The notes under the pieces: generated by a model
The model's database searches: none
The model's input: the letters and a program-made list of their open reading frames with translations, nothing else
What the model was told of the DNA's origin: nothing
Translations under genes and position numbers: made by a program
Shown: positions 2,201 to 21,623 of the stretch, in pieces
How positions within the stretch are numbered: position 1 is the first letter of the stretch
How the letters are laid out: each line of letters opens with the position of its first letter
Assembly: GCA_021829145.1 (NCBI GenBank)
Contig: JAJZOE010000040.1
Location: 8,098-32,097 of the forward strand
Length of the DNA: 24,000 nucleotides
Direction: 5' to 3'
Source: a bacterium
Lineage (GTDB): Bacteria > Patescibacteriota > Saccharimonadia > Saccharimonadales > UBA4665

Positions 2201-3664
2201 CTAGCCAGTAGCTAGCGGCTGATAAACAATATCCAACCCAGAGGTGTCAATACTAAATGCAGAAAGATATCTTTGTAAAGATGAAGCACAGTATTGCTGA
2301 CTTATATTTGATGGATAAGAAACATATAATATCGCACTGTTAAAGTTAACATAATTTACTGAGCATAAACCCTGTAATACATTTGGAAAAATAGCACTGA
2401 AGGAAGAAAATTGAAAGTTTTGAGCTGTTCTATTTAAACCTATACGGTAAAGTTGGTTACCTGATTGACTGGTATTGATTATCGGAGAATTGCTGACGGT
2501 GAAATAAACGAAACTACCTGAATAGTCAGGATATATATTGTCTATATATGATTGTCCGGCAGTTTGAGCTATTTGACCAGAATAGTTATTAGCAATCGAG
2601 TATTTCCAGAGGCTACCACCCGAGGAGTAATAGAGGGTATCTCCATTTCCCCAAGCCATATCGCTTATTGTGCCGTTACTCGTAGAGTTATCTACCAAAG
2701 ACATCGAGCTATTGTAAATATTGATCCCTCCGGTAGAAAGTGATGCTATATACTTTCCATCTGGAGAAACGGCAATATCCTGTGAAAATATATTTGTTTC
2801 TAAGTTCTTAGAACCATTTAGCAGGGTTATATTACCTTGCAAGTCGGGATTATTCTTATCAGGACTCAACAATAAAGCTATTGTTCCTGAATTAGAGGAC
2901 ATCCTAATTATTGAATTATTTGATTGGAAGATTTTATGAAAGTTACCAGATCCACTTCCCATATACAATTCTCCACCATTGCTTATATAGATGTACCCTT
3001 TATTATCTATGAAATAGTTTACAGATGATTTAGGTGTAAGTTTAAACGGAAGCTTAAGATTAGATATGCTGCCATTTTTGAATAGAAATATACCCATTGA
3101 ATTTCTAAGAAGACCTAGCCCAGAAGCATTCCAAGTGGCCGAGCTATATTTTATATTACCCAATACACTAACAATATTGTTTTGATTTATTGTTGTTAAT
3201 AGACCGGAGGAATCGAGGAAGGTTAAGGATGATGATCCGGGGTATAAATAGGATAAACTTGATCCATACACCCCTACCGGAGTAACTGAGAAACTATCCA
3301 AGTAAAGCTTATATGTTTTTTTAGATGATTCATTTATCGTTACAGTCTTAACTAGTCGATTAGAATTATTAAAAACACCCAACTGATACTCTCCATATCT
3401 TACCGAAATAGACAAGAAATGCTTTGCGGAAGTCATTTGGCTGACTAGAGGCAGTCCGTTTTTAACAGGAGTTATGGACACATAATTAGAGGGGTTGCTA
3501 CTTTCAACTATAATTGTAGTGGTGGTAAGTAATGTGTAAACCCATAATAGTATAAAAATAAATACAACAATAAATATTAATAGAAATAAAACCTTTCTTA
3601 TACTCTTAATCCCAAATATCGCTCTACTTATTACCATGATGGCCACCCTGATGGAATTGTGCAT
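2201..3664 (-). CDS. Hypothetical membrane-anchored, N/S-rich protein with beta-propeller-like (TolB/PD40-like) repeats; last gene of the T4SS-like operon
   Basis: 487-aa ORF with one N-terminal TM helix (VLFLLIFIVVFIFILLWVYTLL). Repeated motifs such as SPDGKYIASLSTGGINIYN and GDTLYYSSGGSLWKYS resemble propeller blades. An alternative start at ATG 3637 (MVISR...) overlaps the upstream stop as ATGGTAA, which would fit translational coupling. The domain call is tentative. Confidence 0.7.
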   Translation of the reverse strand: MHNSIRVAIMVISRAIFGIKSIRKVLFLLIFIVVFIFILLWVYTLLTTTTIIVESSNPSNYVSITPVKNGLPLVSQMTSAKHFLSISVRYGEYQLGVFNNSNRLVKTVTINESSKKTYKLYLDSFSVTPVGVYGSSLSYLYPGSSSLTFLDSSGLLTTINQNNIVSVLGNIKYSSATWNASGLGLLRNSMGIFLFKNGSISNLKLPFKLTPKSSVNYFIDNKGYIYISNGGELYMGSGSGNFHKIFQSNNSIIRMSSNSGTIALLLSPDKNNPDLQGNITLLNGSKNLETNIFSQDIAVSPDGKYIASLSTGGINIYNSSMSLVDNSTSNGTISDMAWGNGDTLYYSSGGSLWKYSIANNYSGQIAQTAGQSYIDNIYPDYSGSFVYFTVSNSPIINTSQSGNQLYRIGLNRTAQNFQFSSFSAIFPNVLQGLCSVNYVNFNSAILYVSYPSNISQQYCASSLQRYLSAFSIDTSGLDIVYQPLATG

Positions 3665-5541
3665 GGCGGGTTTGCTTCCTGGGAGATTCCACCAGGTCCT
3701 CCAAGGCTCTGCAGGAATTGTGAAAAATTAACGCCAAACGATGAAGAAACTTTATCCCAGCACGATACTGCCATTGAGTCGCCAAGGATGCTCGGGTTTC
3801 CCCAGCCAGTCTCTATGCCATTGCCACAGTTTACCATTTGTGCAATTACGGTGTTGGAATCGACAGTCTGTCCTTGTTGAACTTCAGGTGTAATACATTC
3901 AGCCACATAAACTTCCATTCCTTTGGCTGGTCCGTCATTTAGTGTATATGCCAAATAAGGTTCACCCTTATACCAGTTAGGAAATATGCCATTAATTGTT
4001 GCATCGCCAATTGCATATATTGGTCCTGTGCCTGAGAAGTCTACCCCTTGGTCTATTCTTTCTGGATTTAACTGGCTAATATCTCTAAATGGGTATTGAT
4101 ATCCAGAAGAGGCCCCAGATAAAGTTGTGGATGAGGATGTTGCAGGACCCTGCGATCCTGGATTAGGATTACAAGAGATTGAGGCAATAGAAACACCACT
4201 GGATAAGTCGTTTAGGATTTTTTCGGCGGTAGGTAGTCTTACAGCTACAAAACTACTATATTCATCTTTAGGTGCCTCAAATCCCGGATAAGACTGCCCG
4301 ACATTAGACGGAGAATACGATTGAGCCGTACCTGCCATATTACCTTGAAAAGCCAAGGTTGCCATAACCACGTTAGGTGCTGCTTTGATTTGCGCCATAA
4401 CGCTAGAGTATGAGCTATTTAATTCTCCTAAAATCATTTCAAGTTGAGTGCTTAGACTATCTATTGGAGATGTGAGCCCAAGTTGTTGGTAAACCGTATT
4501 AGCCTTATTTGAAGGAGTCCATTGAGCGATTCCCCAACCCGTTCCGGAAGGAGCGTTTGAATTACCTCCTCCTGCAATTTCAGTAGGTATTAGAGAAGAC
4601 TCTGCTACCAGGTTTCCTACAATACCCGCAGACTCTGTATCTGTGAATCCATTCTGTACAAAGAAATTGAACGCTTGTTGCTCAGCGTTGTTGCCTGTTA
4701 AAATAGCCGAACCCTCATTACAGCAAGCCAAGGTTTGATTAACCTGGGTTCCAGAAGCGTAAGCACTATTACTCGTGACAGAGTTTACAACTAAATTTAC
4801 AAGAGCATCTACACCTGCCGGAATTGTAGGATGAACATTTAACCCATCTGATTGATCGATGTAATTATTTGTATCCGTTTCATTGCCGGTCATTTGAATG
4901 GGGTTGCCATTAGGATCAACCGTCTTAAACCAGCTTATGACTGAATAGTGGTCTACGGAGGCTTGGCTATATATTGCTTGGTTTTGTGCTTGTATCAGTG
5001 CCGTATAATCGGGGCGATTAATAACAATAGTATCTACCCAATATATAGGTGCAGAAGAATTTATGACTCTTATTGCATTAATAGCTGCATTTATGCTTTG
5101 TACAGTATCGCCTCCATTAGTGCCTAAGGCTATAACTATTGCACTAGCTTGCTTTATACTTGATTGATCTGCAGTAATAGCTTGCATGCCTGTTGTTTGA
5201 GTCTGGTCCATCCCTGGAGTAGATAAGCTCCTTCCGTATTGACCATCGACTATCGCAGTAATTTGTAGTTTTTGAAAAGCAGAAACATAACTACTAGCAG
5301 CTCTTTCTGTAATTGAGTCTCCAAGTATATAAACACTTTGACCTGAAGATAATGTACCTTGGGTTGCAGAGTTGGTTGAGTTAATGGCTGACCCACATAA
5401 ACCACTTAGTGAGTTATTCCCTGTGTAATATTCACTATCTCCATATAGTCTTTGTAATTGAGCACCAGTTAGAGCATATACATTATGGCTTAATCCTAGA
5501 AGGAAAATTGATAATACCAGTATAAAAATAGGTCTTCTCAT
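3631..5541 (-). CDS. Secreted three-domain cell-wall hydrolase: SGNH/GDSL esterase + phage-tail-lysozyme-like domain + degenerate LytM/M23-like domain (functional analogue of VirB1/PrgK)
   Basis: 636-aa ORF with signal peptide MRRPIFILVLSIFLLGLSHNVYA. SGNH blocks are VYILGDSITERAA (GDS), IALGTNGG and DGLNVHP. The lysozyme-like signature is AGIVGNLVAESS...GWGIAQWTPS. The C-terminal IDQGVDFSGTGPIYAIGDATI...GQTVDSNTVIAQM...GNGIETGW is collinear with M23 motifs, but the metal-binding His residues are replaced. Confidence 0.85.
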   Translation of the reverse strand: MRRPIFILVLSIFLLGLSHNVYALTGAQLQRLYGDSEYYTGNNSLSGLCGSAINSTNSATQGTLSSGQSVYILGDSITERAASSYVSAFQKLQITAIVDGQYGRSLSTPGMDQTQTTGMQAITADQSSIKQASAIVIALGTNGGDTVQSINAAINAIRVINSSAPIYWVDTIVINRPDYTALIQAQNQAIYSQASVDHYSVISWFKTVDPNGNPIQMTGNETDTNNYIDQSDGLNVHPTIPAGVDALVNLVVNSVTSNSAYASGTQVNQTLACCNEGSAILTGNNAEQQAFNFFVQNGFTDTESAGIVGNLVAESSLIPTEIAGGGNSNAPSGTGWGIAQWTPSNKANTVYQQLGLTSPIDSLSTQLEMILGELNSSYSSVMAQIKAAPNVVMATLAFQGNMAGTAQSYSPSNVGQSYPGFEAPKDEYSSFVAVRLPTAEKILNDLSSGVSIASISCNPNPGSQGPATSSSTTLSGASSGYQYPFRDISQLNPERIDQGVDFSGTGPIYAIGDATINGIFPNWYKGEPYLAYTLNDGPAKGMEVYVAECITPEVQQGQTVDSNTVIAQMVNCGNGIETGWGNPSILGDSMAVSCWDKVSSSFGVNFSQFLQSLGGPGGISQEANPPCTIPSGWPSW

Positions 5542-8363
5542 TAGTTCGCCTGGGCTAGTGACAAATAGTTTGCCATTACCTGAGTGTCTAAAATGTACTG
5601 CTGATAACGAGCTAAGTCATTATTTATCTGACCATGTTTAAAAAGATAATTAGTGCAATTTAGCCTGTATTGGGGTGATTTAGGATTTGTTGATTTAAAA
5701 CCCATGTCTTCGCAATATATGTTTGCAACAGTATTGTTTGTCGGAGAGTATTGTTGGTTCATAGCTTGGGTTTGCGAGGAACCGCCTGATGATAAATTGC
5801 CCGATAACTGACCTAGGCCATAATACTCACCATTAACCTGTTGACCACAATGGGTGTCAGGTGTTGCATGCGGAAAATTTTTGTTAGTGTTAGCAGTACT
5901 AGAATTGGTTGTATTTGTCATCAGTAAATTAAAGCTAAGATTGAAGCAATGATACAAATCCTGGTAGTTAAAATCAGTGTTAGGTGTTATTGGTTTGCCG
6001 TTTATATCAGGATTGCCTAAAGCCTTGATCCTTTGAATAGTGTAGGTACTTCCGTTTTGCTTATATTTTACGTTGGTGAATAGATAGTCTTCATTTTGTA
6101 TTGGATCATAAGCTCCGGCCTGAGAGTTAGTCATCCCGTATTCTTGTGTTTGGTATGCTTGCCACGGCTGGCTATTAGTACTCGCAGATGTAGCTGATAT
6201 TTTACCAACGAATAAGCTAGAGAACACAGACCCAATTATCTTAGGGAAAGACAGTATAAAACTGCTTATACGACTGAATGTGCCTTCTAAACTTAAAGGT
6301 AAAGCCAGCGAAAGCCGAGAAAATAGAGAGTATGGATCATTAAAAGAGAACAACCTATAGGATAAAGGTTTGTTATTAAGATCGGCAACATAGTTAGAGT
6401 TAGCCTTGGTAGATAAAGAACTAGCTTCACTAGAGCTAATAGGCAATGCTCCCAAATGCCTAGAATAATCGTTATAGGATATATTAAGTCCAGCATCCAT
6501 ATTATTCAATTTATCAGGAGCGGTGGCTCCGATAATACCTACAGGGGTGAAGGCCTTAAGAACGTCAGGAAGTATATTGTGTTGTATTACGGATTGAGCC
6601 TTATAAATTGTTGCACCAATAGCCGCCTGCTCTGCGGCACCACCCGCACAATCTACGATAGTACTACATTGACCAATCTCGCTACCTAATTGAAATGCAC
6701 CTATTCCACCTTGAACAATGAAGCCCAACCAGCTGGTAAGGCCGCCGCAAACCCATCCAAATAAATTCATACCCGGAATATTGTTTATTTCATTAAGCAA
6801 TGAAGTGGCTGAATTTGGAGTAGGTGTTACCATAGGGTTAATATCCGGTGTGTAACCTTTATAATGATCGGTTGTACTAGTTATTGGAAGGTTGTTAGCA
6901 CGAAACCAAGCAGCTGATCTGCTGAATGGCAGAGCGGATACAGGTAATGTGCCATATTTGGTGCGCTTAGCAGCGGAGTTTCCCATAAAGCCTTTCATAA
7001 TCGTTGCTACCTGCGTGCTAGTAATATGTCCAGTTTTTAATTGATCAGCAAGTGTAGGCAGTAGATTCCCGTATCTCATAAGCATTGAAGCAATTTCTGG
7101 CAATCTTTGTAAAGCGGTTGACTGAATAGTGTCTTTGATTGTACAAGCTGTAGTAGCCAGAGATGAAAGAAGTAATGGATTAATCCCTCCAAATGCTTTT
7201 ACCCCCGCGTCTATAGCAGATGACGCACTTTCACCATTGGCTAAAGCCTGGTCGGTTGCAGAAATAGCCGATCCCGCTTCCCCCACGCCTCCTTTAGCAA
7301 AGTCGGCTTGTTGTTGAGCGGCAATCTTGGGATCGGAAGAAGGACTGTTCTCGGATATTCCATCTGAGGCTAGTGATTGGGTTGCAGATTCACCTTGAAT
7401 AGCCTCTTGATCAATAGTCTGCTCAGTTTGCTTGGCATCTTCACCCTCCGTTACCCCGGATTCGTTTACATTAGCGTCCTCCGCCATTGTCGGAGCATAG
7501 CTATTTATGGTGCCTACCTGTGTTTCTTTTAGTGCGGATACAAAACTATCGCCTAATGAACTAGAGTCAAGTTGTTCTGCTGTTACTGGTGCTCCGGTGC
7601 TTGAATCTATTATAATGCCGCCGTTTTTTACCTCAAAGCCATTATCTGCCAAAAGATTTTTAACTACAGGATCATCAAAACTGAATTTATTGATGTCTTC
7701 TGTTAAGCCCATGCCGCTTTCCTCTGTGGTATTAGCTGCATCTTCTGCAGCAGCACTATTATTACAAAGGTTAGAGTTAATAGGCAGCGCTTTACAAATT
7801 AAGTCAGTTGCAAGTGATTTTGCGGCTTTTCTCTCAAAACGTTGTTCAATCTTCGTCTCTTCTCTAAGCATAACCTTTTCAATGGTAACCAACGCATGTG
7901 TTGCTAAAAATGTGAACCCGCTTATAACAAGTAATGCTATACCGCCAATGGCGCCACCACCGATTAATGTTGCTTTTCTTCTCTTTTTGCTTCCACCAAA
8001 AAACTTACCTGCCTTTCCTAAGGCATTTAACAGAAGCTTTGCTTCACCTACACCGGCAAGGCCCATGCCGGCTGCAGCCAGGCCTTTTAGTCCCCTTCCT
8101 CTTACTTTAGGCTCGTCTTCTTCAGAAGGTGACTCTGAATCGTCTGGTGAATAAAATCCACCACCGTCATTACCACTTTCTGTGCTAAAAGATCGCTCCT
8201 GCTTAGCAATATCTTCGTCGGCACCCTTTTTTGCTTCCCTATCGTGAGCTTCTTCTTGTTCTTTATTTATGCCTGTCAGATGGCGAAGATCATCATCAGA
8301 GGGCAGGTACCCCTTACTGAATTCCTCATTATTGTCTTTATTTAATTTGGAAGAGTTGGCCAC
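5541..8363 (-). CDS. Large hypothetical membrane protein (T4SS-associated, no recognisable family)
   Basis: 940-aa ORF with a GTG start. It has an acidic/basic N-terminal region, a Gly-rich TM helix (ATLIGGGAIGGIALLVISGFTFLATHALV), a long S/T/N/A-rich region, and further hydrophobic segments (GMNLFGWVCGGLTSWLGFIVQGGIGAF; RISSFILSFPKIIGSVFSSLFVG). Its stop overlaps the next gene's start as TAATG at 5539-5543. Confidence 0.8.
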   Translation of the reverse strand: MANSSKLNKDNNEEFSKGYLPSDDDLRHLTGINKEQEEAHDREAKKGADEDIAKQERSFSTESGNDGGGFYSPDDSESPSEEDEPKVRGRGLKGLAAAGMGLAGVGEAKLLLNALGKAGKFFGGSKKRRKATLIGGGAIGGIALLVISGFTFLATHALVTIEKVMLREETKIEQRFERKAAKSLATDLICKALPINSNLCNNSAAAEDAANTTEESGMGLTEDINKFSFDDPVVKNLLADNGFEVKNGGIIIDSSTGAPVTAEQLDSSSLGDSFVSALKETQVGTINSYAPTMAEDANVNESGVTEGEDAKQTEQTIDQEAIQGESATQSLASDGISENSPSSDPKIAAQQQADFAKGGVGEAGSAISATDQALANGESASSAIDAGVKAFGGINPLLLSSLATTACTIKDTIQSTALQRLPEIASMLMRYGNLLPTLADQLKTGHITSTQVATIMKGFMGNSAAKRTKYGTLPVSALPFSRSAAWFRANNLPITSTTDHYKGYTPDINPMVTPTPNSATSLLNEINNIPGMNLFGWVCGGLTSWLGFIVQGGIGAFQLGSEIGQCSTIVDCAGGAAEQAAIGATIYKAQSVIQHNILPDVLKAFTPVGIIGATAPDKLNNMDAGLNISYNDYSRHLGALPISSSEASSLSTKANSNYVADLNNKPLSYRLFSFNDPYSLFSRLSLALPLSLEGTFSRISSFILSFPKIIGSVFSSLFVGKISATSASTNSQPWQAYQTQEYGMTNSQAGAYDPIQNEDYLFTNVKYKQNGSTYTIQRIKALGNPDINGKPITPNTDFNYQDLYHCFNLSFNLLMTNTTNSSTANTNKNFPHATPDTHCGQQVNGEYYGLGQLSGNLSSGGSSQTQAMNQQYSPTNNTVANIYCEDMGFKSTNPKSPQYRLNCTNYLFKHGQINNDLARYQQYILDTQVMANYLSLAQAN

Positions 8364-8442: not shown

Positions 8443-9168
8443 CTACCTAGCTCGTCTTCTTATTCGCTTACCTCTGCGATCATAGCTTGATGCAACCTTA
8501 GCCAATTCTTCTGTACTCTTTTCGGCTTTTTGCTCCAGTTTACTTATTCGGTTAACTGCTTTTCTGGCTGCTTTTCGTTCTTTTCTAGTACGAGGTATAT
8601 TTGCATTAGTGATAGAGGAACCGTAATCCATACTAATAGCTCTTGCTTCCTGAGATAATTCGTTGCGCTCATCTATAAGATCATTTATTTTTCTAGCAGT
8701 TTTATGCTCTTTTCGCGAAGAAGGCCTTAGTGTATTAGGAACAGTACGAGGTCCGTCGTGAGTTTTTCTCATTAGCCATTCACCCATATGAGTAAAGTCA
8801 CCCTCGTATGTACCTGCCGGTAAGCTGCGGTCAACCACTTCTTCTTTCAAGTATCCTACCCACCCAATCTTTTCTTTCGGATTACCTGTTTGTCTCGGAT
8901 TCACTAACCTGTCGCCAACATATTGAGCAACTTCTATGTGTCTTTGTGCCTCCGCTTGTCTAGCCTCTCTGCCCTTTTCAGTAAATACCCTAAATAGGCC
9001 TTTTACAGCAGCTACAGACTCTGTTACAGCTCCTGGATACCCTTCGAACCCCGGTTCATGGATAATTGTCTCATTCGGGGGCTCGGGAGAACTAATAACG
9101 GGCCCGTTATCTCTTATGTGATTAATTAATTGTTGCAATTGATTTGGATCGTATGGATGGGATTCCAT
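8443..9168 (-). CDS. Hypothetical soluble protein with a highly basic C-terminal half
   Basis: 241-aa ORF with no TM helix or signal peptide. The C-terminus is rich in R/K (RTRKERKAARKAVNRISKLEQKAEKS...RRGKRIRRRAR). It sits within the operon between the VirB6-like and 940-aa genes. Confidence 0.7.
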   Translation of the reverse strand: MESHPYDPNQLQQLINHIRDNGPVISSPEPPNETIIHEPGFEGYPGAVTESVAAVKGLFRVFTEKGREARQAEAQRHIEVAQYVGDRLVNPRQTGNPKEKIGWVGYLKEEVVDRSLPAGTYEGDFTHMGEWLMRKTHDGPRTVPNTLRPSSRKEHKTARKINDLIDERNELSQEARAISMDYGSSITNANIPRTRKERKAARKAVNRISKLEQKAEKSTEELAKVASSYDRRGKRIRRRAR

Positions 9169-9203: not shown

Positions 9204-9269
9204 TAGCATGTATCCGTCCATTTATCCTCCTCCCGAACATCTTGCACACTCTCACTAAACTAGAAAGGA

Positions 9270-9983
9270 GTGAAAGTGAGATACAGACGTATGAGCGAGA
9301 AGCAACTATTGGTATATGGGGCCAGGATTAGATTGGCCTGGTTTAGAAAAGCAGAGGAACTTGGGAGTGTTAGTGCTGCCTGTAAGTACTATGGCATACC
9401 TAGGCGAACATACTACTACTGGTACAAACGTTATGTTGACGGCCACAAACTGTTAACTAGCCTATATGACTTACCTAGGATCCCTAAGAGTCATAAACAG
9501 GACTTAAGCGAAGAGTTAGTTAGCCTCATTGTTCAGCTAAGACTAGGGCTCGGCTATGGAGAGAATGCCTTAACTCATGTTCTAGGCAGAGATTATGGCG
9601 TACGCCTATCCCATCATGCGGTTGGTAATGTACTGCGCAGAGCATCTTTAACCGAACCTAAGCCCCGTAAAAGGCGTACACAACGTCAACTTAATGACTA
9701 TCCTTACAAACCAGGTGAAGTAGGACAGATGGATGTTAAGCATTGGAAACGGGTGGCTTACCAGTACGATTTAATTGACTGCGCCACCAGGATTAAGTAC
9801 AAACGTTTGTATCCAGGTTACAGTCCAGCTGAAACCATAGACTTTCTAAAACACGCCATCAGGTTCTTTGACCCAGCTTTTAGCTTTAAGACTATTCAAA
9901 CAGACAATGGCCCAGAGTTTGTTTACGACACCAAGCCACAGATTAAATTAACTACCGTCTCACCAGTTACTAAGTGGCTAGAC
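9270..9983 (+). pseudogene. IS481-like (rve integrase-core) transposase, 5' fragment
   Basis: HTH-like N-terminus, then the DDE core start: GQMDVKHWKRVAYQYDLIDCATR...IQTDNGPEFV. The frame breaks at the nested IS. The 12 codons after 9983 in the ORF track (STYAKSVSSNW) are read from the inserted element. Confidence 0.8.
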
Positions 9984-11050: not shown

Positions 11051-11105
11051 ATATTCTCCTTGTATTTGTTTTTAGGTCACAAAGATATTTTAGGCTAGAT
11101 TAGGG

Positions 11106-11120: not shown

Positions 11121-11121
11121 A

Positions 11122-16842: not shown

Positions 16843-17694
16843 CTAACCAAGCTCCCTTTGCAAATGCGGCTGTGCCGCTACGCCTTGTCCTTTGGTTATT
16901 ACGTCGGCTGTCAGGTCATTTATATCTTGAAGTTGCTGGCGGGTGGCAGTGTCCGGGTTATAGGTATCATAGTAAAGCTCAATCAGTTCCTGGGTGTCTA
17001 GAGGAAGGCCTTGAATATTGGCCTGCATAAGGCCTCCTAACACGGCCTGGACCCGGTTCCTTAACTCAGTTTTAGCCGCCTCCAACTTAGCTTCATTAAT
17101 TACAATATGAGGCTCTTTCTTATTAAAAAGGTCGACTACTCCTGTAAGAAAGTTTTTGCTCTGGGCCATAGTCTTTACTTCGTCTACGACCGGGAAGTAT
17201 GGGATAACTACATAAAACTTTTTATCCATGATATTGGTTTGCTGACTTAACAGCTCCATGTAGTTGATATAGTCATCCATCAGCATGGCGAGCAGCATGT
17301 TATCGTGCTCCGAGCGGATCTTATCTAGTTTTTCTAGATACGGCTGCATGTCTATCCGCTGAGTGCGAATACAGATTTGAATCGGAAAATCTAAAGAATT
17401 AAGAAATCCTTGATAGGCGTATTCGACGCTCTCTTGTTCCTGCGGGCTCATTAAATCAAAGTTAATACTCTTAACCATAATTACGCTGCGGAAACTACCG
17501 TCGTTCATAATGACGATACCATCTCTTATTTCGGCAATTTGTAGCGTATTTTGAGTACTGTTAGGATTTATTATTTTCGTTGGCTTAGTTGAAGTGTCAT
17601 GAACTATAGGTCCTTGAGGCGGCTGAGTTATAATCGGACTTGGGATCTGGCCGGGTATTTGTGTTGGTTGTTGGTTATTGAGCGGTGGATTCAT
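16843..17694 (-). CDS. VirB4 N-terminal-domain-like protein (separate ORF) with a Pro/Gln-rich N-terminus
   Basis: 283-aa ORF with no TM helix. IAEIRDGIVIMNDGSFRSVIMVKSINFDLMSPQEQESVEYAYQGFLNSLDFPIQI resembles, from memory, the extreme N-terminal block of Firmicute conjugative VirB4 proteins. Its stop TAG (16845-16843) is separated by 1 nt from the VirB4 ATG. Confidence 0.7.
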   Translation of the reverse strand: MNPPLNNQQPTQIPGQIPSPIITQPPQGPIVHDTSTKPTKIINPNSTQNTLQIAEIRDGIVIMNDGSFRSVIMVKSINFDLMSPQEQESVEYAYQGFLNSLDFPIQICIRTQRIDMQPYLEKLDKIRSEHDNMLLAMLMDDYINYMELLSQQTNIMDKKFYVVIPYFPVVDEVKTMAQSKNFLTGVVDLFNKKEPHIVINEAKLEAAKTELRNRVQAVLGGLMQANIQGLPLDTQELIELYYDTYNPDTATRQQLQDINDLTADVITKGQGVAAQPHLQRELG

Positions 17695-17704: not shown

Positions 17705-18784
17705 TTAATGTAAATTAATAACTACTTCGTCGTCCGGCATTGATTTCTGCGCCTCGTGGTCAAGTGTGGCAACGCTCAAGTAGCTGTTATTGGCAAGATT
17801 CAGTATAACAGGGTCGATTGGATTTGGCTTCGGGTTTTGGGCAGTCTGTGGTGCCTGAACTTGAGGAGTGTAAGCTGTTTGTTCCTCTATTTGCCTGTCG
17901 GCTGGTCGAGTCTGCTCCGGTGCCGGATAAGCAGGTATTATTAAGTCTGCCTGAACCACGCTATCTTGAGAAGTTGCCTGAGCTGTAGACTGAGGCGAAT
18001 TACTTTGTGACGAGTGGATGGCCATGTGAGTAATCGGTACTTGCGGCACTTCAAAAGTATTCCTGGCCCTAAGTTCGGCACTTAGGATGCCCTCGTCGGT
18101 AATATCCAATATAGGGTTGCTATCCGGATGGCTTACTCTGCCATTAAGTGAATCAATTATTCTTTGACGGTGAGCTTGGGCAGACAGGTTTATACGGTTA
18201 TCCATCGACTGAGCTAACGGGTTATGCTGTTCATCTAAAATGTCATCCTCCGGAGTAACGTCATAATCGGGTACGGGTTTTGGTATCGAACCGATATCTA
18301 TTAACCGGTCGTTGCTGGCCGGGCGGATTACTCTGCTATCGTCAGGAACCGAAGGCATGTTTTTAATAGCCCAACCACGACTGTCAATCATAAGTGTTAA
18401 TGCTTGCAAACGGTTGTTGACCTCTGCTTGTGACAGCCCGTTGGTTAAAGGTCTTTCAGTTTTCTTAGGTACGGTAATAGTAACTAGTTCCTTTACGCCG
18501 CTCTGGTTCCATAACCTCTTTCTCGGCTTGAATAAAAACCTTAGCCGGGCCAGGGCCCAAACTTCAGTTGGTTGATCCCTACGGAAAGGAAAGGCAAAAA
18601 ACCCGCTTAGCAGGCCCGGTGGCAACAAGATAATCAACATAAATAGAGCATGCTTTGATAAAGCAAGAAAACACAGGTACAGGAAGAATATAGTAGACAG
18701 GCTATATATAAACTGTCTGAGTGTCAGAGGACCGAGAATATGGTCTTCCGCTTCAATATCCTGAATCACTTTATACGTTGCCAT
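17705..18784 (-). CDS. PrgI/VirB3-like T4SS membrane protein with a long Pro/Gln-rich C-terminal extension
   Basis: 359-aa ORF. N-terminus MATYKVIQDIEAEDHILGPLTLRQFIY is followed by two TM helices (SLSTIFFLYLCFLAL; LFMLIILLPPGLLSGFFAF), which is the PrgI-family pattern. It is the first gene of the minus-strand operon. Confidence 0.8.
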   Translation of the reverse strand: MATYKVIQDIEAEDHILGPLTLRQFIYSLSTIFFLYLCFLALSKHALFMLIILLPPGLLSGFFAFPFRRDQPTEVWALARLRFLFKPRKRLWNQSGVKELVTITVPKKTERPLTNGLSQAEVNNRLQALTLMIDSRGWAIKNMPSVPDDSRVIRPASNDRLIDIGSIPKPVPDYDVTPEDDILDEQHNPLAQSMDNRINLSAQAHRQRIIDSLNGRVSHPDSNPILDITDEGILSAELRARNTFEVPQVPITHMAIHSSQSNSPQSTAQATSQDSVVQADLIIPAYPAPEQTRPADRQIEEQTAYTPQVQAPQTAQNPKPNPIDPVILNLANNSYLSVATLDHEAQKSMPDDEVVINLH

Positions 18785-18792
18785 TTTATCTT

Positions 18793-18822
18793 AGTATAAC
18801 ACCTTAAAAAGCATTAGCTGAA
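18793..18822 (-). promoter_or_regulatory. Candidate operon promoter with an extended -10 (TGTTATACT) and weak -35 TTCAGC
   Basis: On the minus strand, TATACT is 18798-18793, preceded by TGT. Only 8 nt separate the -10 from ATG 18784, implying a leaderless or near-leaderless mRNA. Motif evidence only. Confidence 0.4.
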
Positions 18823-18901
18823 TGTCTGTCATATGTAATAAAATCTATAGTTTGCCTGGGTATAGCTATTGAAGAGATATCTACCCGTATGCCCGTATAC
18901 C

Positions 18902-18930
18902 TTGAAGGAGTTAGTGTTTCATATTATAGT
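18902..18930 (+). promoter_or_regulatory. Candidate promoter of the pilin array (-35 TTGAAG, 17 nt, -10 TATAGT)
   Basis: TTGAAG at 18902-18907 and TATAGT at 18925-18930, followed by TAAGG SD (18936-18940) and ATG 18949. This supports the internal start for pilin 1. Confidence 0.4.
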
Positions 18931-18948
18931 AGTTCTAAGGTTCAGCAG

Positions 18949-19431
18949 ATGATAAAAAGCAAAAAGCATACCAGGAGAACGCTAACGGTAATTTTTACGG
19001 TTCTAGCTTTACTATTTCCATTAACTGCAACCGTCAGCGCTGTTTCTGTTAACCCCGCTTCAGCTCCCTTGTCGCAGTTTGCTTTATCGCAGTGTGGCAG
19101 TAAAAGCGAAGCGGTCCCAACCAGTATTAACTTCGGTTGTACTGGGGCTCAGTGTATCAGCAACCCCAATAGCGCATACTGCCAAACCCCTCACAGTGGA
19201 ATAGTCGACCTAACTTTTGCAATTATTCGTTTTTTGACTGACGGCGTAGGCCTGGTTTTGATAGCTTCCCTGGTTATAGCAGGTATTCAATATACAACCT
19301 CAAGAGGCGAACCCCAAGCTATGAGTAGTGCTTCAAAGAGAATCCAGAGCACTCTTACAGCACTATTTGTTTATTTGTTTATTTATGCAATTCTAAATTA
19401 TGTAGTTCCCAGTAAACTATTCGGACAATAA
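18949..19431 (+). CDS. VirB2/TrbC-like T4SS pilin paralog 1
   Basis: Signal peptide MIKSKKHTRRTLTVIFTVLALLFPLTATVSA, a 4-Cys variable region, then a two-TM core IAGIQYTTSRGEPQAMSSASKRIQSTLTALFV. The track ORF begins at 18889, but ATG 18949 has an SD and yields a canonical signal peptide. Confidence 0.8.
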   Translation: MIKSKKHTRRTLTVIFTVLALLFPLTATVSAVSVNPASAPLSQFALSQCGSKSEAVPTSINFGCTGAQCISNPNSAYCQTPHSGIVDLTFAIIRFLTDGVGLVLIASLVIAGIQYTTSRGEPQAMSSASKRIQSTLTALFVYLFIYAILNYVVPSKLFGQ

Positions 19432-19433
19432 AG

Positions 19434-19823
19434 ATGATAACCAGACTTTTTCAACAATTTGCCTCATCTTGCACTCCCAGCGGAGGCAGCTTTTTTGGAA
19501 TACCCAAATGGTATGCCTATCTACCAGGCCGGTCAGATCCAGTTACCGGAGTATGCACGCCTAACTTTACTAGTATTGGTGACTTTTGGCTGATTGTAGC
19601 TGCAGTAATCGAAATGCTGCTCAGGCTTGGGGCAATTGTTGCAGTTTTCATGGTTATTTACGGTGGTGTTACTTTCGCAACTAGTCAGGGCAACCCGGAA
19701 GATACCAAGAAGGCCAGAAGTACCATAATCTATGCTCTAGTGGGCTTGCTGGTATCTATCACGGCCTCGTTTATTATTACCTTTGTTGCTAAGAGTGTGA
19801 TGACAAGGAGCGTAACGGCTTAA
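19434..19823 (+). CDS. VirB2/TrbC-like T4SS pilin paralog 2 (no obvious signal peptide)
   Basis: 129 aa. Cys pair (SSCTPS...GVCTPN), then core IYGGVTFATSQGNPEDTKKARSTIIYALVGLLV. The start is 2 nt after the stop of paralog 1. Confidence 0.8.
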   Translation: MITRLFQQFASSCTPSGGSFFGIPKWYAYLPGRSDPVTGVCTPNFTSIGDFWLIVAAVIEMLLRLGAIVAVFMVIYGGVTFATSQGNPEDTKKARSTIIYALVGLLVSITASFIITFVAKSVMTRSVTA

Positions 19824-19827
19824 GCTT

Positions 19828-20166
19828 ATGTTAAACCTATTGCACGTTATCGCCAGCACCTGTACGGGAAGCCAATACAGCCTTCATGTTGATGGTAGGG
19901 GTACCTGTTACAACACTGGAATACCGACCGTTCAATCCGGCAGTCATGAACTTCAATTTATTTTGCAATTATTCTTTGCCATACTGGCGGCTATCTCGGT
20001 ATTGTTTGTAGTCATCGGAGGTATGCGATATACCATTTCCGGGGGCGACCCGGAAGATATGTCTAAGGCCAAGAACACGATTATCTACGCCCTGGTAGGT
20101 TTAGTTGTTGCCTTATTTGCTGAAGCAATCGTTAGCTTTGCCTTAGGGTATATACAAGGTCTATAG
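19828..20166 (+). CDS. VirB2/TrbC-like T4SS pilin paralog 3 (no obvious signal peptide)
   Basis: 112 aa. Cys pair (STCTGS...GTCYNT), then core IGGMRYTISGGDPEDMSKAKNTIIYALVGLVV. Confidence 0.8.
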   Translation: MLNLLHVIASTCTGSQYSLHVDGRGTCYNTGIPTVQSGSHELQFILQLFFAILAAISVLFVVIGGMRYTISGGDPEDMSKAKNTIIYALVGLVVALFAEAIVSFALGYIQGL

Positions 20167-20168
20167 AA

Positions 20169-20573
20169 GTGAGGAAGCTAATATACTCAATTATTACCGG
20201 CATTATTATTTCCCTGTCGGCCTTTCTGCCGGTATCTGCAGCCAGTAGCAGCAGTGGAGCTATATCCAGTAGTAATTTCATTCCTGTCTGTAGTGGCATA
20301 GCTAAACCTACCATACCCTGCCAGGACTCAAACGCCCAGTCAGGGAATACCATTATTAAGATCATTAAAGATGTTATAGATATTATTTCCTTTATCGTCG
20401 GCGTTGCTGCCGTATTTATAATTATCGTCAGTGGTATGAAAATGGTGGTAGCTAGCGGAGATTCAAAAGCTCTATCAGAAGCAAAGACCGGCATAGTTGG
20501 AGCTATTATAGGAATATTAGTAGTTGTTCTGGCTCAAGGATTCGTAGTATTTGTATTAGATAGGATAAAATAA
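20169..20573 (+). CDS. VirB2/TrbC-like T4SS pilin paralog 4
   Basis: 134 aa with a GTG start. Signal peptide ...IIISLSAFLPVSAAS, Cys pair (PVCSG...IPCQD), core VSGMKMVVASGDSKALSEAKTGIVGAIIGILV. Confidence 0.8.
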   Translation: MRKLIYSIITGIIISLSAFLPVSAASSSSGAISSSNFIPVCSGIAKPTIPCQDSNAQSGNTIIKIIKDVIDIISFIVGVAAVFIIIVSGMKMVVASGDSKALSEAKTGIVGAIIGILVVVLAQGFVVFVLDRIK

Positions 20574-20574
20574 A

Positions 20575-21048
20575 ATGAAGTTATTAATGAACAGAACCAT
20601 TCGTATCATTGCAATAATCGTTTTTGGGATCAGTCCTTTCATTATTAGCCAATCGGTATCTGCCCAGTCGGCTGCCTATTCCAGTGCTTGTCAGGGGATA
20701 AGTGAGTTAGGTGCTGGTCAAGGCTGTAGCAGTGGTCCTTCCACCTTTGATAATCTAATCAAGACCGCAGTTGATATCTTAAGTTATATAGTGGGAATTG
20801 CTGCCGTCATTATGATTATTGTGAGCGGATTAAGGTTCGTGATGGCTGGTGGTGAAAGCCAGGCAGTTTCTGGAGCTAAAAACTCGCTTATCTGGGCTAT
20901 TGTTGGTATTGCTGTGGTTGCGCTTGCCCAAGTTATCGTCCACATGACCCTAAACACGTCAGTTAATATTGCAAAAAACAGTCCTACTTCATCATCTCAA
21001 CAGGCTAAGCAACCGACTAAAACTACTAACCAACCGACGCCACACTAG
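20575..21048 (+). CDS. VirB2/TrbC-like T4SS pilin paralog 5 (polar S/T/Q/P tail)
   Basis: 157 aa. Signal peptide ...IFGISPFIISQSVSAQS, Cys pair (SACQG...QGCSS), core VSGLRFVMAGGESQAVSGAKNSLIWAIVGIAV. It shares LNTSVNI with paralog 6. Confidence 0.82.
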   Translation: MKLLMNRTIRIIAIIVFGISPFIISQSVSAQSAAYSSACQGISELGAGQGCSSGPSTFDNLIKTAVDILSYIVGIAAVIMIIVSGLRFVMAGGESQAVSGAKNSLIWAIVGIAVVALAQVIVHMTLNTSVNIAKNSPTSSSQQAKQPTKTTNQPTPH

Positions 21049-21058
21049 TGTTACTTTA

Positions 21059-21086
21059 TTGATTTTCTTCTTATCAGTGCTATTAT
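21059..21086 (+). promoter_or_regulatory. Candidate internal promoter for pilin paralog 6 (-35 TTGATT, 16 nt, -10 TATTAT)
   Basis: Lies in the only sizeable gap (74 nt) of the pilin array and is followed by AGGAAAGG SD and ATG 21123. Motif evidence only. Confidence 0.35.
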
Positions 21087-21122
21087 ATTTCTGATATAAG
21101 CCAAGGAAAGGTAAAAAATAGA

Positions 21123-21623
21123 ATGATTCAAAAATTTAAAAAACAATTAATGATTGCTGTAGCGGCACTGTCATTGCTGGTACCGGTAGCCGTACCAGCG
21201 GTAGCTTTTGCCAATTCGCCACCCGGCTCAACAGGCTGTACGAGCAATAATATCGCTAGTCAGGTGGGTAATGGTATAGCATCAGCCACAAACCAAACAA
21301 CCAATTCCTGTGGTACTGGCTCTGACATTACAAACGGTGTTAAGAAGATTGCAATAAATGTAGTTGATATCCTGTCGGTTGTTGTAGGTATTGTTGCTGT
21401 TATTATGATCATCTACGCAGGACTAAGATATGTAACCTCTGGGGGCGAGAGTGGCGGTGTTACTAGCGCAAAAAACAGCTTGCTTTATGCGATCGTAGGA
21501 TTAGTATTAGTAGCTCTAGCTCAGTTTATAGTCAGATGGGTGCTCAACACTTCAGTTAATATTGGTACAACAAGCCCACAAGTAGTCAATTTTATTAACC
21601 TTATTCACTTAATAAGGTGGTAA
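21123..21623 (+). CDS. VirB2/TrbC-like T4SS pilin paralog 6
   Basis: 166 aa. Signal peptide ...LLVPVAVPAVAFANS, Cys pair (TGCTSN...NSCGTG), core YAGLRYVTSGGESGGVTSAKNSLLYAIVGLVL. It is the paralog most similar to paralog 5. Confidence 0.82.
   Translation: MIQKFKKQLMIAVAALSLLVPVAVPAVAFANSPPGSTGCTSNNIASQVGNGIASATNQTTNSCGTGSDITNGVKKIAINVVDILSVVVGIVAVIMIIYAGLRYVTSGGESGGVTSAKNSLLYAIVGLVLVALAQFIVRWVLNTSVNIGTTSPQVVNFINLIHLIRW

What the first reader, a model, noticed from the sequence alone, without database searches (positions are those of the whole stretch)
2201..21623. Chromosomal Gram-positive/CPR-type T4SS-like locus with no coupling protein, relaxase or integrase, sitting beside dnaN-recF
Seen: a compact minus-strand operon encodes a PrgI/VirB3-like protein, a split VirB4 (Walker A AKSGAGKS, Walker B ILIVDEAW), a TrbL/VirB6-like protein, a multi-domain cell-wall hydrolase and three large proteins of no recognisable family. 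A divergent array of six VirB2/TrbC-like pilins accompanies it. None of the following appears in the 24 kb: a VirD4/TraG-type ATPase, VirB11, a relaxase, an integrase, or a direct repeat of the tRNA-Ser 3' end. Established: minimal Gram-positive T4SSs use VirB1/B3/B4/B6/B8-like parts plus VirD4 and a relaxase for conjugation. VirB-type systems without these (for example ComB of Helicobacter pylori) serve DNA uptake, and other systems translocate effectors. Inference: this is a non-conjugative apparatus, plausibly used by an ultra-small episymbiont for host contact, effector delivery or DNA acquisition. T4SS-like clusters have been noted in Saccharibacteria-type genomes, but to my knowledge their substrates, function and most of the accessory proteins seen here are uncharacterised.
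Basis: partly seen in the sequence, partly recalled or inferred. Interest (0 to 1): 0.75.

Follow-up and report, generated by a model that had tools for sequence, protein, structure and literature searches.

The report
Known Saccharibacteria type IV secretion locus
This is the origin-proximal type IV secretion and pilin gene cluster typical of Saccharibacteria, an apparatus already published as essential for their growth on host bacteria, so the finding is real but not new.

Summary
Window 2201-21623 encodes PrgI/VirB3, a TrsD-like protein plus VirB4, an extended polytopic VirB6-like protein, a three-module cell-wall hydrolase and six divergent VirB2-type pilins, next to dnaN-recF.

- The "split VirB4" is a conserved two-gene state (79 of 80 related loci), not a broken gene.
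- A nested insertion-sequence pair was missed: IS701-family inside IS481-family, about 9227-11406. It carries an rve "integrase core" transposase.
- The VirB6 call is not supported by any held HMM. It rests on topology, synteny and published structure-based annotation.

No coupling protein, relaxase, recombinase or tRNA-Ser att repeat lies within 10 kb upstream or 8 kb downstream.

The locus is syntenic, gene for gene, with SEML1_0002-0020 of Southlakia epibionticum, shown by Tn-seq to be largely essential for epibiotic growth (Wang 2023). Its features (no relaxase, TrsD, pilin arrays, dnaA/dnaN proximity) were surveyed phylum-wide (Quinonero-Coronel 2025).

Verdict: a new member of a known kind. 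The substrate remains unknown.

Minor additions:
- The 940-aa protein belongs to a scaffold family whose longer members carry swappable C-terminal lytic or nuclease-like domains.
- The 487-aa protein is an anchored TolB-like propeller.
- The VirB6-like protein ends in a rare phage-type S74 autoprocessing domain.

The parts
2201..3664 (-). 487-aa protein (called as 478 aa from a later ATG). It has an N-terminal membrane anchor, a beta-sandwich and a TolB-like beta-propeller ectodomain. It is the last gene of the operon and abuts recF.
   Evidence: TM segment at 15-54. A profile of 9 syntenic homologues hits TolB 6pnv at E 9.8e-4. Members hit PD40 and CarboxypepD_reg. Nine of 80 related loci carry a detectable homologue, seven of them directly before recF in the printed gene orders.
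3631..5541 (-). 636-aa secreted three-module cell-wall hydrolase, the VirB1 functional equivalent: an SGNH/GDSL-like esterase, a phage-tail-type lysozyme and an M23-like domain.
   Evidence: Phage_lysozyme2 2.6e-20, with weak GDSL and M23 hits. phi29 gp13 3csr E 3.3e-5. PHROG tape-measure and endolysin lysozyme modules. Signal-anchor-like segment at 3-25. Its start overlaps the stop of the 940-aa gene.
5541..8363 (-). 940-aa bitopic protein with a disordered N-terminus, a TM helix near residue 130-162 and a large all-alpha ectodomain with conserved cysteines. It belongs to a scaffold family found next to virB4 in related Saccharimonadales loci (the library search itself carries no taxonomy or context); longer members carry C-terminal lytic or nuclease-like modules.
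   Evidence: 175 family representatives. Fused domains in relatives: Exo_endo_phos with CHAP or M23, GH26, GH5, VanY. AF2 model pTM 0.78 with no PDB or BFVD neighbour. It has the same position as SEML1_0007.
8443..9168 (-). 241-aa basic, TM-less (probably cytoplasmic) protein of unknown role. It evolves fast, but its position after the VirB6-like gene is conserved.
   Evidence: No family hit. Homologue in L050 (32% identity by tblastn, 39% in the alignment), also directly after a VirB6-like gene. Compositionally similar 284-290-aa proteins sit at the same position in L029 and L012.
9227..11406 (.). Remnant of an IS481-family insertion sequence (outer ends approximate), lying in the intergenic gap between the VirB6-like gene and the 241-aa gene. 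Its transposase gene (9270-9983 plus 11121-11456) is split by the inner IS.
   Evidence: rve and HTH domains. Excising 9984-11120 in silico restores a 349-aa ORF that matches IS481 transposase over model positions 2-283 of 284, E 1.4e-50. Absent from 80 of 80 related loci.
9984..11120 (-). IS701-family insertion sequence with an intact 353-aa transposase and 15-bp perfect terminal inverted repeats (TCGACTTACGCAAAA). It is nested inside the IS481-family element.
   Evidence: NF049921 IS701 E 2.6e-70. Inverted repeat I1. Sequence read directly.
11421..14807 (-). 1128-aa extended VirB6-like polytopic membrane protein. Domains in order: signal anchor, beta-rich Cys-containing ectodomain (about 50-290), conserved TM core (about 370-640), alpha-solenoid (about 650-955), collagen-like GPP run (1036-1056) and a Peptidase_S74 autoprocessing domain (1057-1119).
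   Evidence: TM scan. AF2 model. 125 homologues, many with precomputed PF19590. The Foldseek hits with the highest probability are R388 TrwI/VirB6, but they are not significant. S74: Pfam 1.2e-5 and phrog_6121 4e-15. The orthologues SEML1_0011 and SEML1_0013 are annotated VirB6-like by structure.
14910..16841 (-). VirB4 ATPase of the CD1110/MPF-FATA type, 643 aa.
   Evidence: The start codon was verified. 81-87% identical in the 80 related Saccharimonadales loci kept (those most similar in VirB4).
16843..17694 (-). TrsD/TraC-like protein (283 aa), homologous to the N-terminal domain of VirB4 and encoded as a separate gene.
   Evidence: NF041427 TrsD 8.5e-8, and the N-terminus of the VirB4 models. 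PF26593 precomputed. Present in 79 of 80 loci.
17705..18784 (-). PrgI/VirB3-like membrane protein (359 aa) with a long Pro/Gln-rich C-terminal extension.
   Evidence: PF12666 2.8e-11. TM hairpin at 24-67.
18785..18888 (.). Divergent intergenic region between prgI and the first pilin gene. It is the presumed site of promoters for both units (inference only).
   Evidence: Sequence read. The promoter scan gave nothing above chance.
18889..21623 (+). Array of six divergent VirB2/TrbC-type pilin genes: 18889-19431, 19434-19823, 19828-20166, 20169-20573, 20575-21048 and 21123-21623.
   Evidence: PF18895 hits. Hydrophobic hairpin architecture. 19-24% identity to the first copy. All six copies were detected in most related loci (43-46 of 80).
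21658..21683 (+). Strong hairpin terminator between the pilin array and the convergent hsp20 gene.
   Evidence: 11-bp stem with 5 G-C pairs and a T-run.

Best explanation
Identity. The locus is the chromosomal, replication-origin-proximal type IV secretion system of a Saccharimonadales (Saccharibacteria/TM7) bacterium. It belongs to the Patescibacteria clade of monoderm (MPF-FATA-related) T4SSs and is orthologous to SEML1_0004-0019 of Southlakia epibionticum.

Proposed mechanism (inferred from family knowledge):
- VirB4 and its separately encoded N-terminal-domain homologue TrsD dock on the membrane through PrgI/VirB3 and the extended VirB6-like protein. Together they form the cytoplasmic-membrane translocon.
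- VirB4 energises extraction and polymerisation of the six VirB2-like pilins into a pilus or tube.
- The secreted esterase-lysozyme-M23-like enzyme, the 940-aa membrane-anchored scaffold and the anchored TolB-like propeller open and organise the cell wall, either the bacterium's own or the host's, at the contact site.

Function. No coupling ATPase or relaxase lies with the genes, so the machine does not conjugate DNA. Most likely it is a contact-dependent conduit to the host bacterium for protein export or uptake of host material, and is needed for epibiotic growth.

Status of each step. Shown here: gene content, homology, synteny, conservation pattern, and the absence of conjugation genes within the 42 kb seen. 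Shown by others in an orthologous locus: essentiality. Inferred: pilus formation, direction of transport and substrate.
For: Component homology.

Source and surroundings:
- The source contig and its flanks read ABC/GT genes, yidC, rnpA, dnaA, dnaN, recF, T4SS, pilins, hsp20, tRNA-Ser.
- Precomputed Pfam hits show no VirD4, relaxase or recombinase in the 10 kb upstream or the 8.2 kb downstream.
- No repeat of the tRNA-Ser of 14 nt or more was found.

Synteny. Their order is hsp20 | six pilins | VirB6 | PrgI | TrsD | VirB4 | ... | hydrolase | recF | dnaN.

Conservation in the same genome pairs:
- VirB4 has a median identity of 83% and TrsD 71%, against dnaN at 68%. This fits strong purifying selection on the motor.
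- Pilins (37-46%), the VirB6-like protein (30%), p940 (29%) and p487 (25%) diverge fast, as expected for host-facing parts.

Relatives of p940 carry C-terminal CHAP, M23, VanY, GH26, GH5 and EEP modules.

Literature:
- The same gene order runs from SEML1_0001 to SEML1_0020, and most of those genes were Tn-seq-essential.
- The phylum-wide survey reports TrsD, pilin arrays of 2-11 genes, rare relaxases and dnaA/dnaN proximity.
- The FEMS review gives the same reading.
- Tubular structures, possibly T4SS pili, were seen at a parasite-host interface.
Against: - The VirB6 assignment is not supported by Pfam, NCBIfam, a profile search of PDB sequences or hhalign against pCF10 PrgH. Foldseek matches to TrwI are not significant.
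- No VirB8-like protein was recognised in the window.
- A nested IS pair separates the VirB6-like gene from four downstream genes and could be polar. No replacement promoter was detected.
- Only 42 kb of a 74.8-kb contig was visible, so a coupling protein or relaxase elsewhere in the genome is not excluded. T4CP homologues are common elsewhere in Patescibacteria genomes.
- No substrate, pilus or direction of transport has been demonstrated for any member of this clade.
Confidence: 0.8

Rival explanations
1. It is the mating-pair-formation module of an ordinary conjugative element. The coupling protein, relaxase and oriT would be encoded elsewhere in the genome, so the machine would transfer DNA.
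For: VirB4 is of the CD1110 conjugative family. pCF10 has the same core order PrgH-PrgI-PrgJ-PrgK. T4CP homologues often lie far from virB4 in Patescibacteria.
Against: - No T4CP, relaxase, recombinase or att repeat in the 42 kb seen.
- The locus sits at a fixed chromosomal site between recF and hsp20 in most of the related genomes, which is vertical rather than mobile behaviour.
- Only 109 relaxases were found phylum-wide, and the ML1 T4CP homologue is non-essential.
- VirB4 is more conserved than dnaN.
Confidence: 0.04
2. It is a DNA-uptake machine, ComB-like or Ced-like, that supplies nucleotides or genes from the host.
For: These bacteria lack nucleotide synthesis. VirB4 gives weak hits to the CedB and CedD models. 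A relaxase is not needed for import.
Against: - The CedB and CedD scores (55.8 and 24.5 bits) lie far below their cut-offs of 700 and 600.
- No VirB7, VirB9 or VirB10 ComB-type core was found.
- In the model organism, competence depends on comEC, and a comEC deletion is viable while the T4SS stays essential.
Confidence: 0.08
3. The small-protein array encodes secreted toxin or effector subunits exported by the apparatus, as with Bordetella Ptx/Ptl, and not pilins.
For: This was the original proposal for TM7x, based on signal peptides and gene arrangement. Four of the six have N-terminal hydrophobic leaders.
Against: All six match the T4SS_pilin family, and two also match TrbC/VirB2. All have the two-helix hydrophobic hairpin of VirB2. 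Similarity to pertussis toxin S1 was only 11% in the original report.
Confidence: 0.05
4. In this particular genome the locus is decaying. The nested IS insertion is polar on the four downstream genes, and the apparatus no longer works.
For: The IS pair lies inside the operon and is unique among the loci compared. No promoter-like site was detected on the minus strand between the IS pair and the 241-aa gene.
Against: - All T4SS ORFs are full length and intact.
- The insertion is intergenic.
- The inner transposase has the same orientation as the operon, so read-through is possible.
- The outer IS was itself hit by a second insertion, so its own insertion is not the most recent event, yet the genes downstream of it are still intact.
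- Orthologues of most of the downstream genes are essential in ML1.
Confidence: 0.06

Closest known systems
T4SS of Candidatus Southlakia epibionticum ML1 (SEML1_0004-0019; Wang et al. 2023, PMC10633639)
   Same: Same neighbourhood and content: dnaA-dnaN-recF, small exported proteins, multi-domain lysozyme, roughly 1000-aa hypothetical protein, VirB4, TrsD-like, PrgI, extended VirB6-like, six pilins, hsp20. No adjacent T4CP or relaxase.
   Different: - Here the single VirB6-like gene follows VirB4 instead of preceding PrgI. ML1 has two VirB6-like genes and an NTF2-like gene between them.
- The hydrolase has SGNH and M23-like flanks in place of glucosaminidase and a Cys-peptidase.
- The 940-aa protein lacks the DD-peptidase end of SEML1_0007.
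- The VirB6-like protein carries an S74 tail.
- A nested IS pair is inserted.
Patescibacteria-clade T4SS as surveyed by Quinonero-Coronel et al. 2025 (PMC12102498)
   Same: MPF-FATA-related VirB4, separate TrsD, PrgI-type VirB3, VirB2 arrays of 2-11 divergent genes, rare relaxases, and proximity to dnaA/dnaN.
   Different: Nothing qualitative. This window is one more Saccharimonadia example, with a minority gene order.
Prg/Pcf T4SS of Enterococcus faecalis pCF10, and the CD1110 family of Clostridioides CTn2 (conjugative MPF-FATA)
   Same: Core order VirB6-like, PrgI, VirB4, large lysozyme-containing hydrolase. VirB4 reaches the CD1110 equivalog cut-off.
   Different: - pCF10 has a T4CP (PcfC), a relaxase (PcfG), LPXTG adhesins and a VirB8-like PrgL, but no pilins. 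Its VirB4 is one polypeptide.
- hhalign found no similarity between the VirB6-like family and PrgH, or between the p940 family and PrgK.
Trs system of Staphylococcus pGO1 (TrsD)
   Same: A separate small protein homologous to the N-terminus of VirB4 (NF041427 hit).
   Different: pGO1 is a conjugative plasmid with a relaxase and T4CP and without pilins. The TrsD match is below the family cut-off (32.3 against 200 bits).
T4CP-less effector systems (Bordetella Ptl, Brucella VirB)
   Same: They work without a coupling protein encoded in the locus, and they use VirB2.
   Different: These are diderm systems with a VirB7/9/10 outer-membrane core. None of those parts is found here.

Membership tests
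Patescibacteria-clade (MPF-FATA-related) T4SS | VirB4 ATPase of the monoderm CD1110/MPF-FATA type | tested here: met
   NF045971 371.7 bits against cut-off 325. 4AG5 E 6.5e-50. No phylogeny was made.
Patescibacteria-clade (MPF-FATA-related) T4SS | Separate TrsD-like gene (VirB4 N-terminal-domain homologue) next to virB4 | tested here: met
   Present in 79 of 80 related loci. The TrsD model score is below its curated cut-off.
Patescibacteria-clade (MPF-FATA-related) T4SS | PrgI-type VirB3 | tested here: met
   PF12666 44.2 bits against cut-off 27.
Patescibacteria-clade (MPF-FATA-related) T4SS | Array of divergent VirB2-like pilins near virB4 | tested here: met
   Six PF18895 matches, five above the gathering score. 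19-24% identity to the first copy.
Patescibacteria-clade (MPF-FATA-related) T4SS | VirB6-like polytopic membrane protein | tested here: inconclusive
   - For: polytopic core and an 'extended' architecture. Relatives carry precomputed PF19590, which I recall as TrbL_3 but could not verify. The TrwI Foldseek hits have the highest probability (0.51) but E 0.87.
- Against: no Pfam, NCBIfam, PDB-profile or PrgH hhalign support.
Patescibacteria-clade (MPF-FATA-related) T4SS | No relaxase or coupling protein with the cluster; chromosomal position near dnaA/dnaN | tested here: met
   dnaA-dnaN-recF lie immediately upstream. No relaxase or coupling protein in 42 kb. The rest of the genome was not visible.
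Patescibacteria-clade (MPF-FATA-related) T4SS | Required for epibiotic growth | not testable with these tools
   Shown only for the ML1 orthologues.
Conjugative T4SS / ICE | VirD4/TcpA-type coupling protein, relaxase and oriT; integrase and att sites for an ICE | tested here: not met
   None within 10 kb upstream or 8.2 kb downstream. No tRNA-Ser repeat of 14 nt or more. The only DDE or rve genes are IS transposases. oriT cannot be searched without a relaxase family.
ComB / diderm VirB-type systems | VirB7/VirB9/VirB10 core complex and VirB8 | tested here: not met
   No such Pfam or NCBIfam hits on any ORF of the cluster.
Ptx/Ptl-like toxin export | The small-gene array encodes toxin subunits | tested here: not met
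   All six are T4SS_pilin or TrbC-like.

The most novel reading that the evidence does not exclude
The accessory genes, not the VirB core, hold the new biology. On this reading, the p940 family is an unrecognised class of T4SS-linked, membrane-anchored all-alpha scaffolds with no solved structural neighbour. These scaffolds would present interchangeable host-envelope-degrading or nuclease-like heads (CHAP, M23, VanY, GH26, GH5, EEP), either fused or encoded by the next gene. Together with the fast-evolving pilins, they would set host range and open the host wall for feeding. In addition, the cytoplasmic alpha-solenoid of the extended VirB6-like protein, here ending in a phage-type S74 trimerising and autocleaving module, would replace the missing coupling protein as the substrate dock.
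Probability: 0.2. Interest if true: 0.6.

Novelty: new member of a known kind. Interest (0 to 1): 0.3.

Why it matters
This T4SS is one of the few molecular handles on how ultra-small, metabolically dependent Patescibacteria exploit their host bacteria. It is essential in the one genetically tractable species, it is the only monoderm T4SS with VirB2-type pilins, and its substrate is unknown. This window adds no new principle. It does show three things:
- The cluster sits at a fixed site next to the replication origin.
- The motor (VirB4 and TrsD) is more conserved than the sliding clamp, while the surface parts diverge fast.
- The accessory proteins are modular.

These patterns point to the pilins, the p940-family scaffold and its hydrolase partners as candidates for host-specificity and wall-breaching functions.

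Tried and rejected
- Looked up the VirB4 ORF with its TTG start and found nothing on record. The true start is the ATG at 16841.
- Tested the VirB6 assignment with Pfam at E up to 1 on the protein and five relatives, NCBIfam, phmmer and a 69-sequence profile against PDB sequences, and hhalign against pCF10 PrgH. All were negative.
- The first structure job, with a 69-row alignment, failed.
- For p940, the word-indexed search gave only four proteins, the PDB profile search gave one chance-level hit, Foldseek against PDB and BFVD gave nothing, hhalign against PrgK gave nothing, and PHROGs gave nothing.
- For p487, the word-indexed search returned nothing. I built a profile from syntenic ORFs instead.
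- For p241, BLASTP against the syntenic L029 protein was not significant.
- Searched for a tRNA-Ser att repeat and found none of 14 nt or more.
- The Rfam scan found only the tRNA.
- The promoter scan was no better than shuffled sequence.
- A literature search for PF19590 found nothing.
- Considered a frameshifted VirB4 pseudogene. Rejected because the split is conserved and the second gene has its own SD and ATG.
- Considered the IS pair as evidence of a mobile island. Rejected because both are simple IS elements absent from all related loci.

Full report
**What is in the window**

ORF listing and family scans give the following map.

- dnaN lies at 52-1143 and recF at 1158-2195, both on the plus strand.
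- A minus-strand operon follows:
  - 2201-3664: 487-aa protein.
  - 3631-5541: 636-aa hydrolase. It has Phage_lysozyme2 at 2.6e-20, flanked by weak GDSL and M23 matches. Its lysozyme module resembles phi29 gp13.
  - 5541-8363: 940-aa protein with no family hit.
  - 8443-9168: 241-aa protein with no family hit.
  - 11421-14807: 1128-aa protein.
  - 14910-16841: VirB4.
  - 16843-17694: 283-aa protein.
  - 17705-18784: PrgI (PF12666, above the gathering score).
- Six plus-strand genes at 18889-21623 all match T4SS_pilin PF18895. Five are above the gathering score, and two also hit TrbC/VirB2.
- A strong terminator lies at 21658-21683.
- hsp20 is convergent at 21702-22199, and tRNA-Ser(UGA) lies at 22389-22478.

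VirB4 reaches the curated cut-off of the CD1110 conjugal ATPase family (371.7 against 325 bits). It matches the solved Thermoanaerobacter VirB4 domain at E 6.5e-50.

**Corrections to the observation**

*The "split VirB4".*
- The 283-aa protein matches TrsD and positions 2-99 of the VirB4 models. The 643-aa protein matches positions 174-734.
- The two genes are in different frames, one base apart (TAG at 16845-16843, ATG at 16841). The second gene has its own Shine-Dalgarno sequence.
- The pair occurs in 79 of 80 related loci. This is the conserved TrsD plus VirB4 state described for Patescibacteria, not a frameshift.

*Missed insertion sequences.*
- An IS701-family element lies at 9984-11120. 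It has 15-bp perfect terminal inverted repeats and an intact 353-aa transposase (NF049921, E 2.6e-70).
- It sits inside the transposase gene of an IS481-family element.
- Removing it in silico restores a 349-aa ORF. That ORF matches the IS481 model over positions 2-283 of 284 at E 1.4e-50.
- The outer transposase carries the rve "integrase core" domain, so "no integrase" is imprecise. It is a transposase, however, not a site-specific recombinase.
- Neither IS occurs in any of the 80 related loci.

*The VirB6 call.*
- The call gets no support from the Pfam copy held here, NCBIfam, a profile search of PDB sequences or hhalign against pCF10 PrgH.
- Several things do speak for it:
  - It has a polytopic core of five to seven hydrophobic helices between residues 370 and 640.
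  - In 56 of 59 related loci its gene sits directly upstream of prgI, where prgH sits in pCF10.
  - Many relatives carry precomputed PF19590 hits. I recall that family as TrbL_3 but could not verify it.
  - R388 TrwI/VirB6 chains are the highest-probability Foldseek hits, though not significant (probability 0.51, E 0.87).
  - The ML1 orthologues have a published structure-based VirB6 annotation.
- I rate membership as inconclusive but probable.

**Where it comes from and what surrounds it**

- The window is part of a 74.8-kb metagenome contig, ENA ERZ27237454 k141_928508.
- Ten kb upstream lie an ABC exporter, glycosyltransferases, epimerases, an R3H/KH-domain protein gene, yidC, rnpA and dnaA, followed by dnaN. 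This is the replication-origin region.
- The 8.2 kb downstream holds small ORFs, a polytopic membrane protein, NUDIX and two toxin-antitoxin pairs.
- Neither flank contains a VirD4/TcpA ATPase, VirB11, a relaxase or a recombinase.
- No repeat of the tRNA-Ser of 14 nt or more exists.
- The rest of the genome could not be read.

**Relatives**

The best 80 are nearly all titled Saccharimonadales or Saccharibacteria MAGs (a few carry only generic titles), 81-87% identical in VirB4.
- The neighbourhood is highly conserved. The order is hsp20, six pilins (divergent), VirB6-like, PrgI, TrsD, VirB4, variable large proteins, hydrolase, sometimes the p487 homologue, then recF and dnaN.
- The window shares a minority order, with the VirB6-like gene after VirB4, with L004, L012 and L029.
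- Across the same genome pairs the median identities are:

| Protein | Median identity |
|---|---|
| VirB4 | 83% |
| TrsD | 71% |
| dnaN | 68% |
| recF | 47% |
| Pilins | 37-46% |
| VirB6-like | 30% |
| p940 | 29% |
| p487 | 25% |

- One caveat applies: the 80 loci were picked for VirB4 similarity.
- The pattern is a strongly constrained motor with rapidly diversifying exposed parts. A fixed chromosomal site argues for vertical inheritance rather than a mobile element.

**The proteins of no recognisable family**

*p940.*
- An exhaustive HMMER search finds 175 cluster representatives.
- Longer members (1200-1320 aa) add C-terminal Exo_endo_phos plus CHAP, or Exo_endo_phos plus M23. Others carry GH26, GH5 or VanY.
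- In the window these enzymatic heads are absent from p940. The next gene, whose start overlaps the p940 stop, encodes the esterase-lysozyme-M23-like enzyme.
- The AF2 model is confident (pTM 0.78). It shows a disordered N-terminus, one long TM helix and a large all-alpha ectodomain with conserved cysteines.
- The model has no neighbour in PDB or BFVD.

*p487.*
- A profile of nine syntenic homologues hits TolB (E 9.8e-4).
- Members hit PD40 and CarboxypepD_reg-type models.
- It is therefore a membrane-anchored beta-sandwich plus TolB-like propeller. It occupies the position of the small exported PEGA and prealbumin-like proteins SEML1_0004 and SEML1_0005.

*p241.*
- It is basic, has no TM segment and has no family.
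- A homologue follows the VirB6-like gene in L050 (32% identity by tblastn, 39% in the alignment).
- Compositionally similar proteins occupy the same slot in L029 and L012.
- It is therefore more likely a fast-evolving cluster component than IS cargo.

*The VirB6-like protein.* The model (mean pLDDT 69) shows these domains in order:
- a signal anchor;
- a beta-rich, Cys-containing ectodomain;
- the TM core;
- a well-predicted alpha-solenoid at about 650-955;
- a GPP-rich run;
- a Peptidase_S74 intramolecular-chaperone domain (Pfam 1.2e-5; phrog_6121 4e-15).

The S74 domain carries an S1057-D-I-R-L-K1062 motif. I recall S-D-x-R-x-K as the catalytic Ser/Lys autocleavage motif of S74 domains, but I did not check this with a tool. 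The tail occurs in only three of about 200 relatives. The distribution of charges around the helices suggests that the C-terminal half is cytoplasmic; this is my inference.

**Comparison with what is known**

- McLean 2020 described the TM7x T4SS region with VirB4, VirB6, VirB2 and an array of four to six small secreted proteins.
- Wang 2023 showed by Tn-seq that SEML1_0006-0019 is essential for epibiotic growth. They noted the pilin series and the lack of recognisable coupling and relaxase proteins.
- Their tables list dnaA, dnaN, recF, two small exported proteins, a triple hydrolase, a 1113-aa protein, VirB4, a TrsD-like protein, PrgI, two VirB6-like proteins, six pilins and Hsp20. This is the same order as here.
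- Quinonero-Coronel 2025 surveyed 2,474 virB4 genes in Patescibacteria. They report:
  - MPF-FATA ancestry;
  - TrsD (2,272 homologues);
  - PrgI;
  - 441 pilin arrays of 2-11 genes averaging 25% identity;
  - only 109 relaxases;
  - T4CP homologues mostly far from virB4;
  - frequent proximity to dnaA/dnaN.
- A 2025 review presents these systems as the one monoderm exception with VirB2. It speculates about a pilus conduit for signals or uptake.
- A 2026 preprint shows tubular structures, possibly T4SS pili, at a parasite-host interface.

**Most likely mechanism**

- VirB4 with TrsD, anchored by PrgI and the extended VirB6-like protein, forms the membrane translocon. It powers assembly of the VirB2-like pilins into a filament or tube.
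- The hydrolase, the p940 scaffold and the anchored propeller remodel the wall at the contact site.
- The machine serves contact-dependent exchange with the host, not conjugation.
- I put about 0.9 on the identity, about 0.8 on "non-conjugative host-interface machine", and no more than even odds on any particular substrate or direction.
- Rivals are:
  - conjugation with distant partners (0.04);
  - DNA uptake (0.08);
  - a toxin-subunit array (0.05);
  - an IS-inactivated locus (0.06).

**Verdict**

This window is a new member of a known kind. The modest additions are the modular p940 family, the propeller assignment of p487, the sporadic S74 tail on the VirB6-like protein, the minority gene order, and a nested IS pair tolerated inside an operon most of whose orthologues are essential.

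Noticed in passing
window 11421-11750 (residues 1036-1128 of the 1128-aa protein): The VirB6-like protein ends in a collagen-like GPP run followed by a phage-type Peptidase_S74 intramolecular-chaperone domain. The domain carries the motif S1057-D-I-R-L-K1062, which I recall as the catalytic Ser/Lys autocleavage motif of S74 domains (not checked with a tool). Among about 200 relatives, only P0003 and a gene in L017 share it. Charge distribution suggests it is cytoplasmic. Its role is unexplained.
   Followed up: partly
window 9227-11406: Nested insertion sequences: an intact IS701-family element (9984-11120) lies inside the transposase gene of an IS481-family element. Both sit in the intergenic gap of an operon most of whose orthologues are essential in S. 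epibionticum. Both are absent from 80 related loci.
   Followed up: yes
window 5541-8363 and relatives P0123, P0207, P0226, P0230, P0233, P0196: The 940-aa protein family has a confident all-alpha predicted fold with no PDB or BFVD neighbour. Longer members carry C-terminal Exo_endo_phos plus CHAP or M23, GH26, GH5 or VanY modules. In the window, the enzymatic modules are in the translationally overlapping next gene instead.
   Followed up: partly
window 14910-17694 compared with 52-1143, across loci L001-L080: VirB4 (median 83% identity) and TrsD (71%) are more conserved than the DNA polymerase sliding clamp (68%) and recF (47%) in the same genome pairs. Pilins, the VirB6-like protein, p940 and p487 are at 25-46%. 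The loci were selected on VirB4 similarity, so the contrast is somewhat inflated.
   Followed up: partly
window 11421-14807; loci L004, L012, L029 against 56 others: The VirB6-like gene lies downstream of virB4 in the window and in three relatives. In 56 other Saccharimonadales loci it lies upstream of prgI. This is a lineage-specific rearrangement inside the cluster.
   Followed up: yes
window 8443-9168; L050 2173-3192; L029 15159-16013; L012 15204-16076: A basic, TM-less protein of 240-340 aa follows the VirB6-like gene in different gene orders. It has almost no sequence conservation (32% by tblastn / 39% in the alignment to one locus, about 20% to the other two) and no family assignment.
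   Followed up: partly
window 22730-23011 (-) and 23659-23871 (+; minus strand of L085 8329-8541): Short ORFs after tRNA-Ser look, by eye, like C-terminal fragments of larger genes, one resembling a DUF4143-type ATPase and one a DUF488-like protein. This would suggest gene remnants in the region. It was not checked with profile searches.
   Followed up: no
L085 400-1750 (about 6.5-7.8 kb beyond the window end) and L085 about 6620-6640: Two toxin-antitoxin pairs (a 78-aa protein with no Pfam hit plus PemK, and DUF6364 plus PIN) lie downstream of the window. A 13-nt match to the tRNA-Ser T-arm (GGGTTCGAATCCC) at window coordinate about 25570 probably marks another tRNA gene.
   Followed up: no
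window 18889-19431: The first pilin paralogue is atypical. It is longer (180 aa), has a Cys-rich insertion between the leader and the hairpin, and scores below the PF18895 gathering threshold (21.4 against 26.6 bits). A copy is detected in 44 of 80 loci.
   Followed up: no
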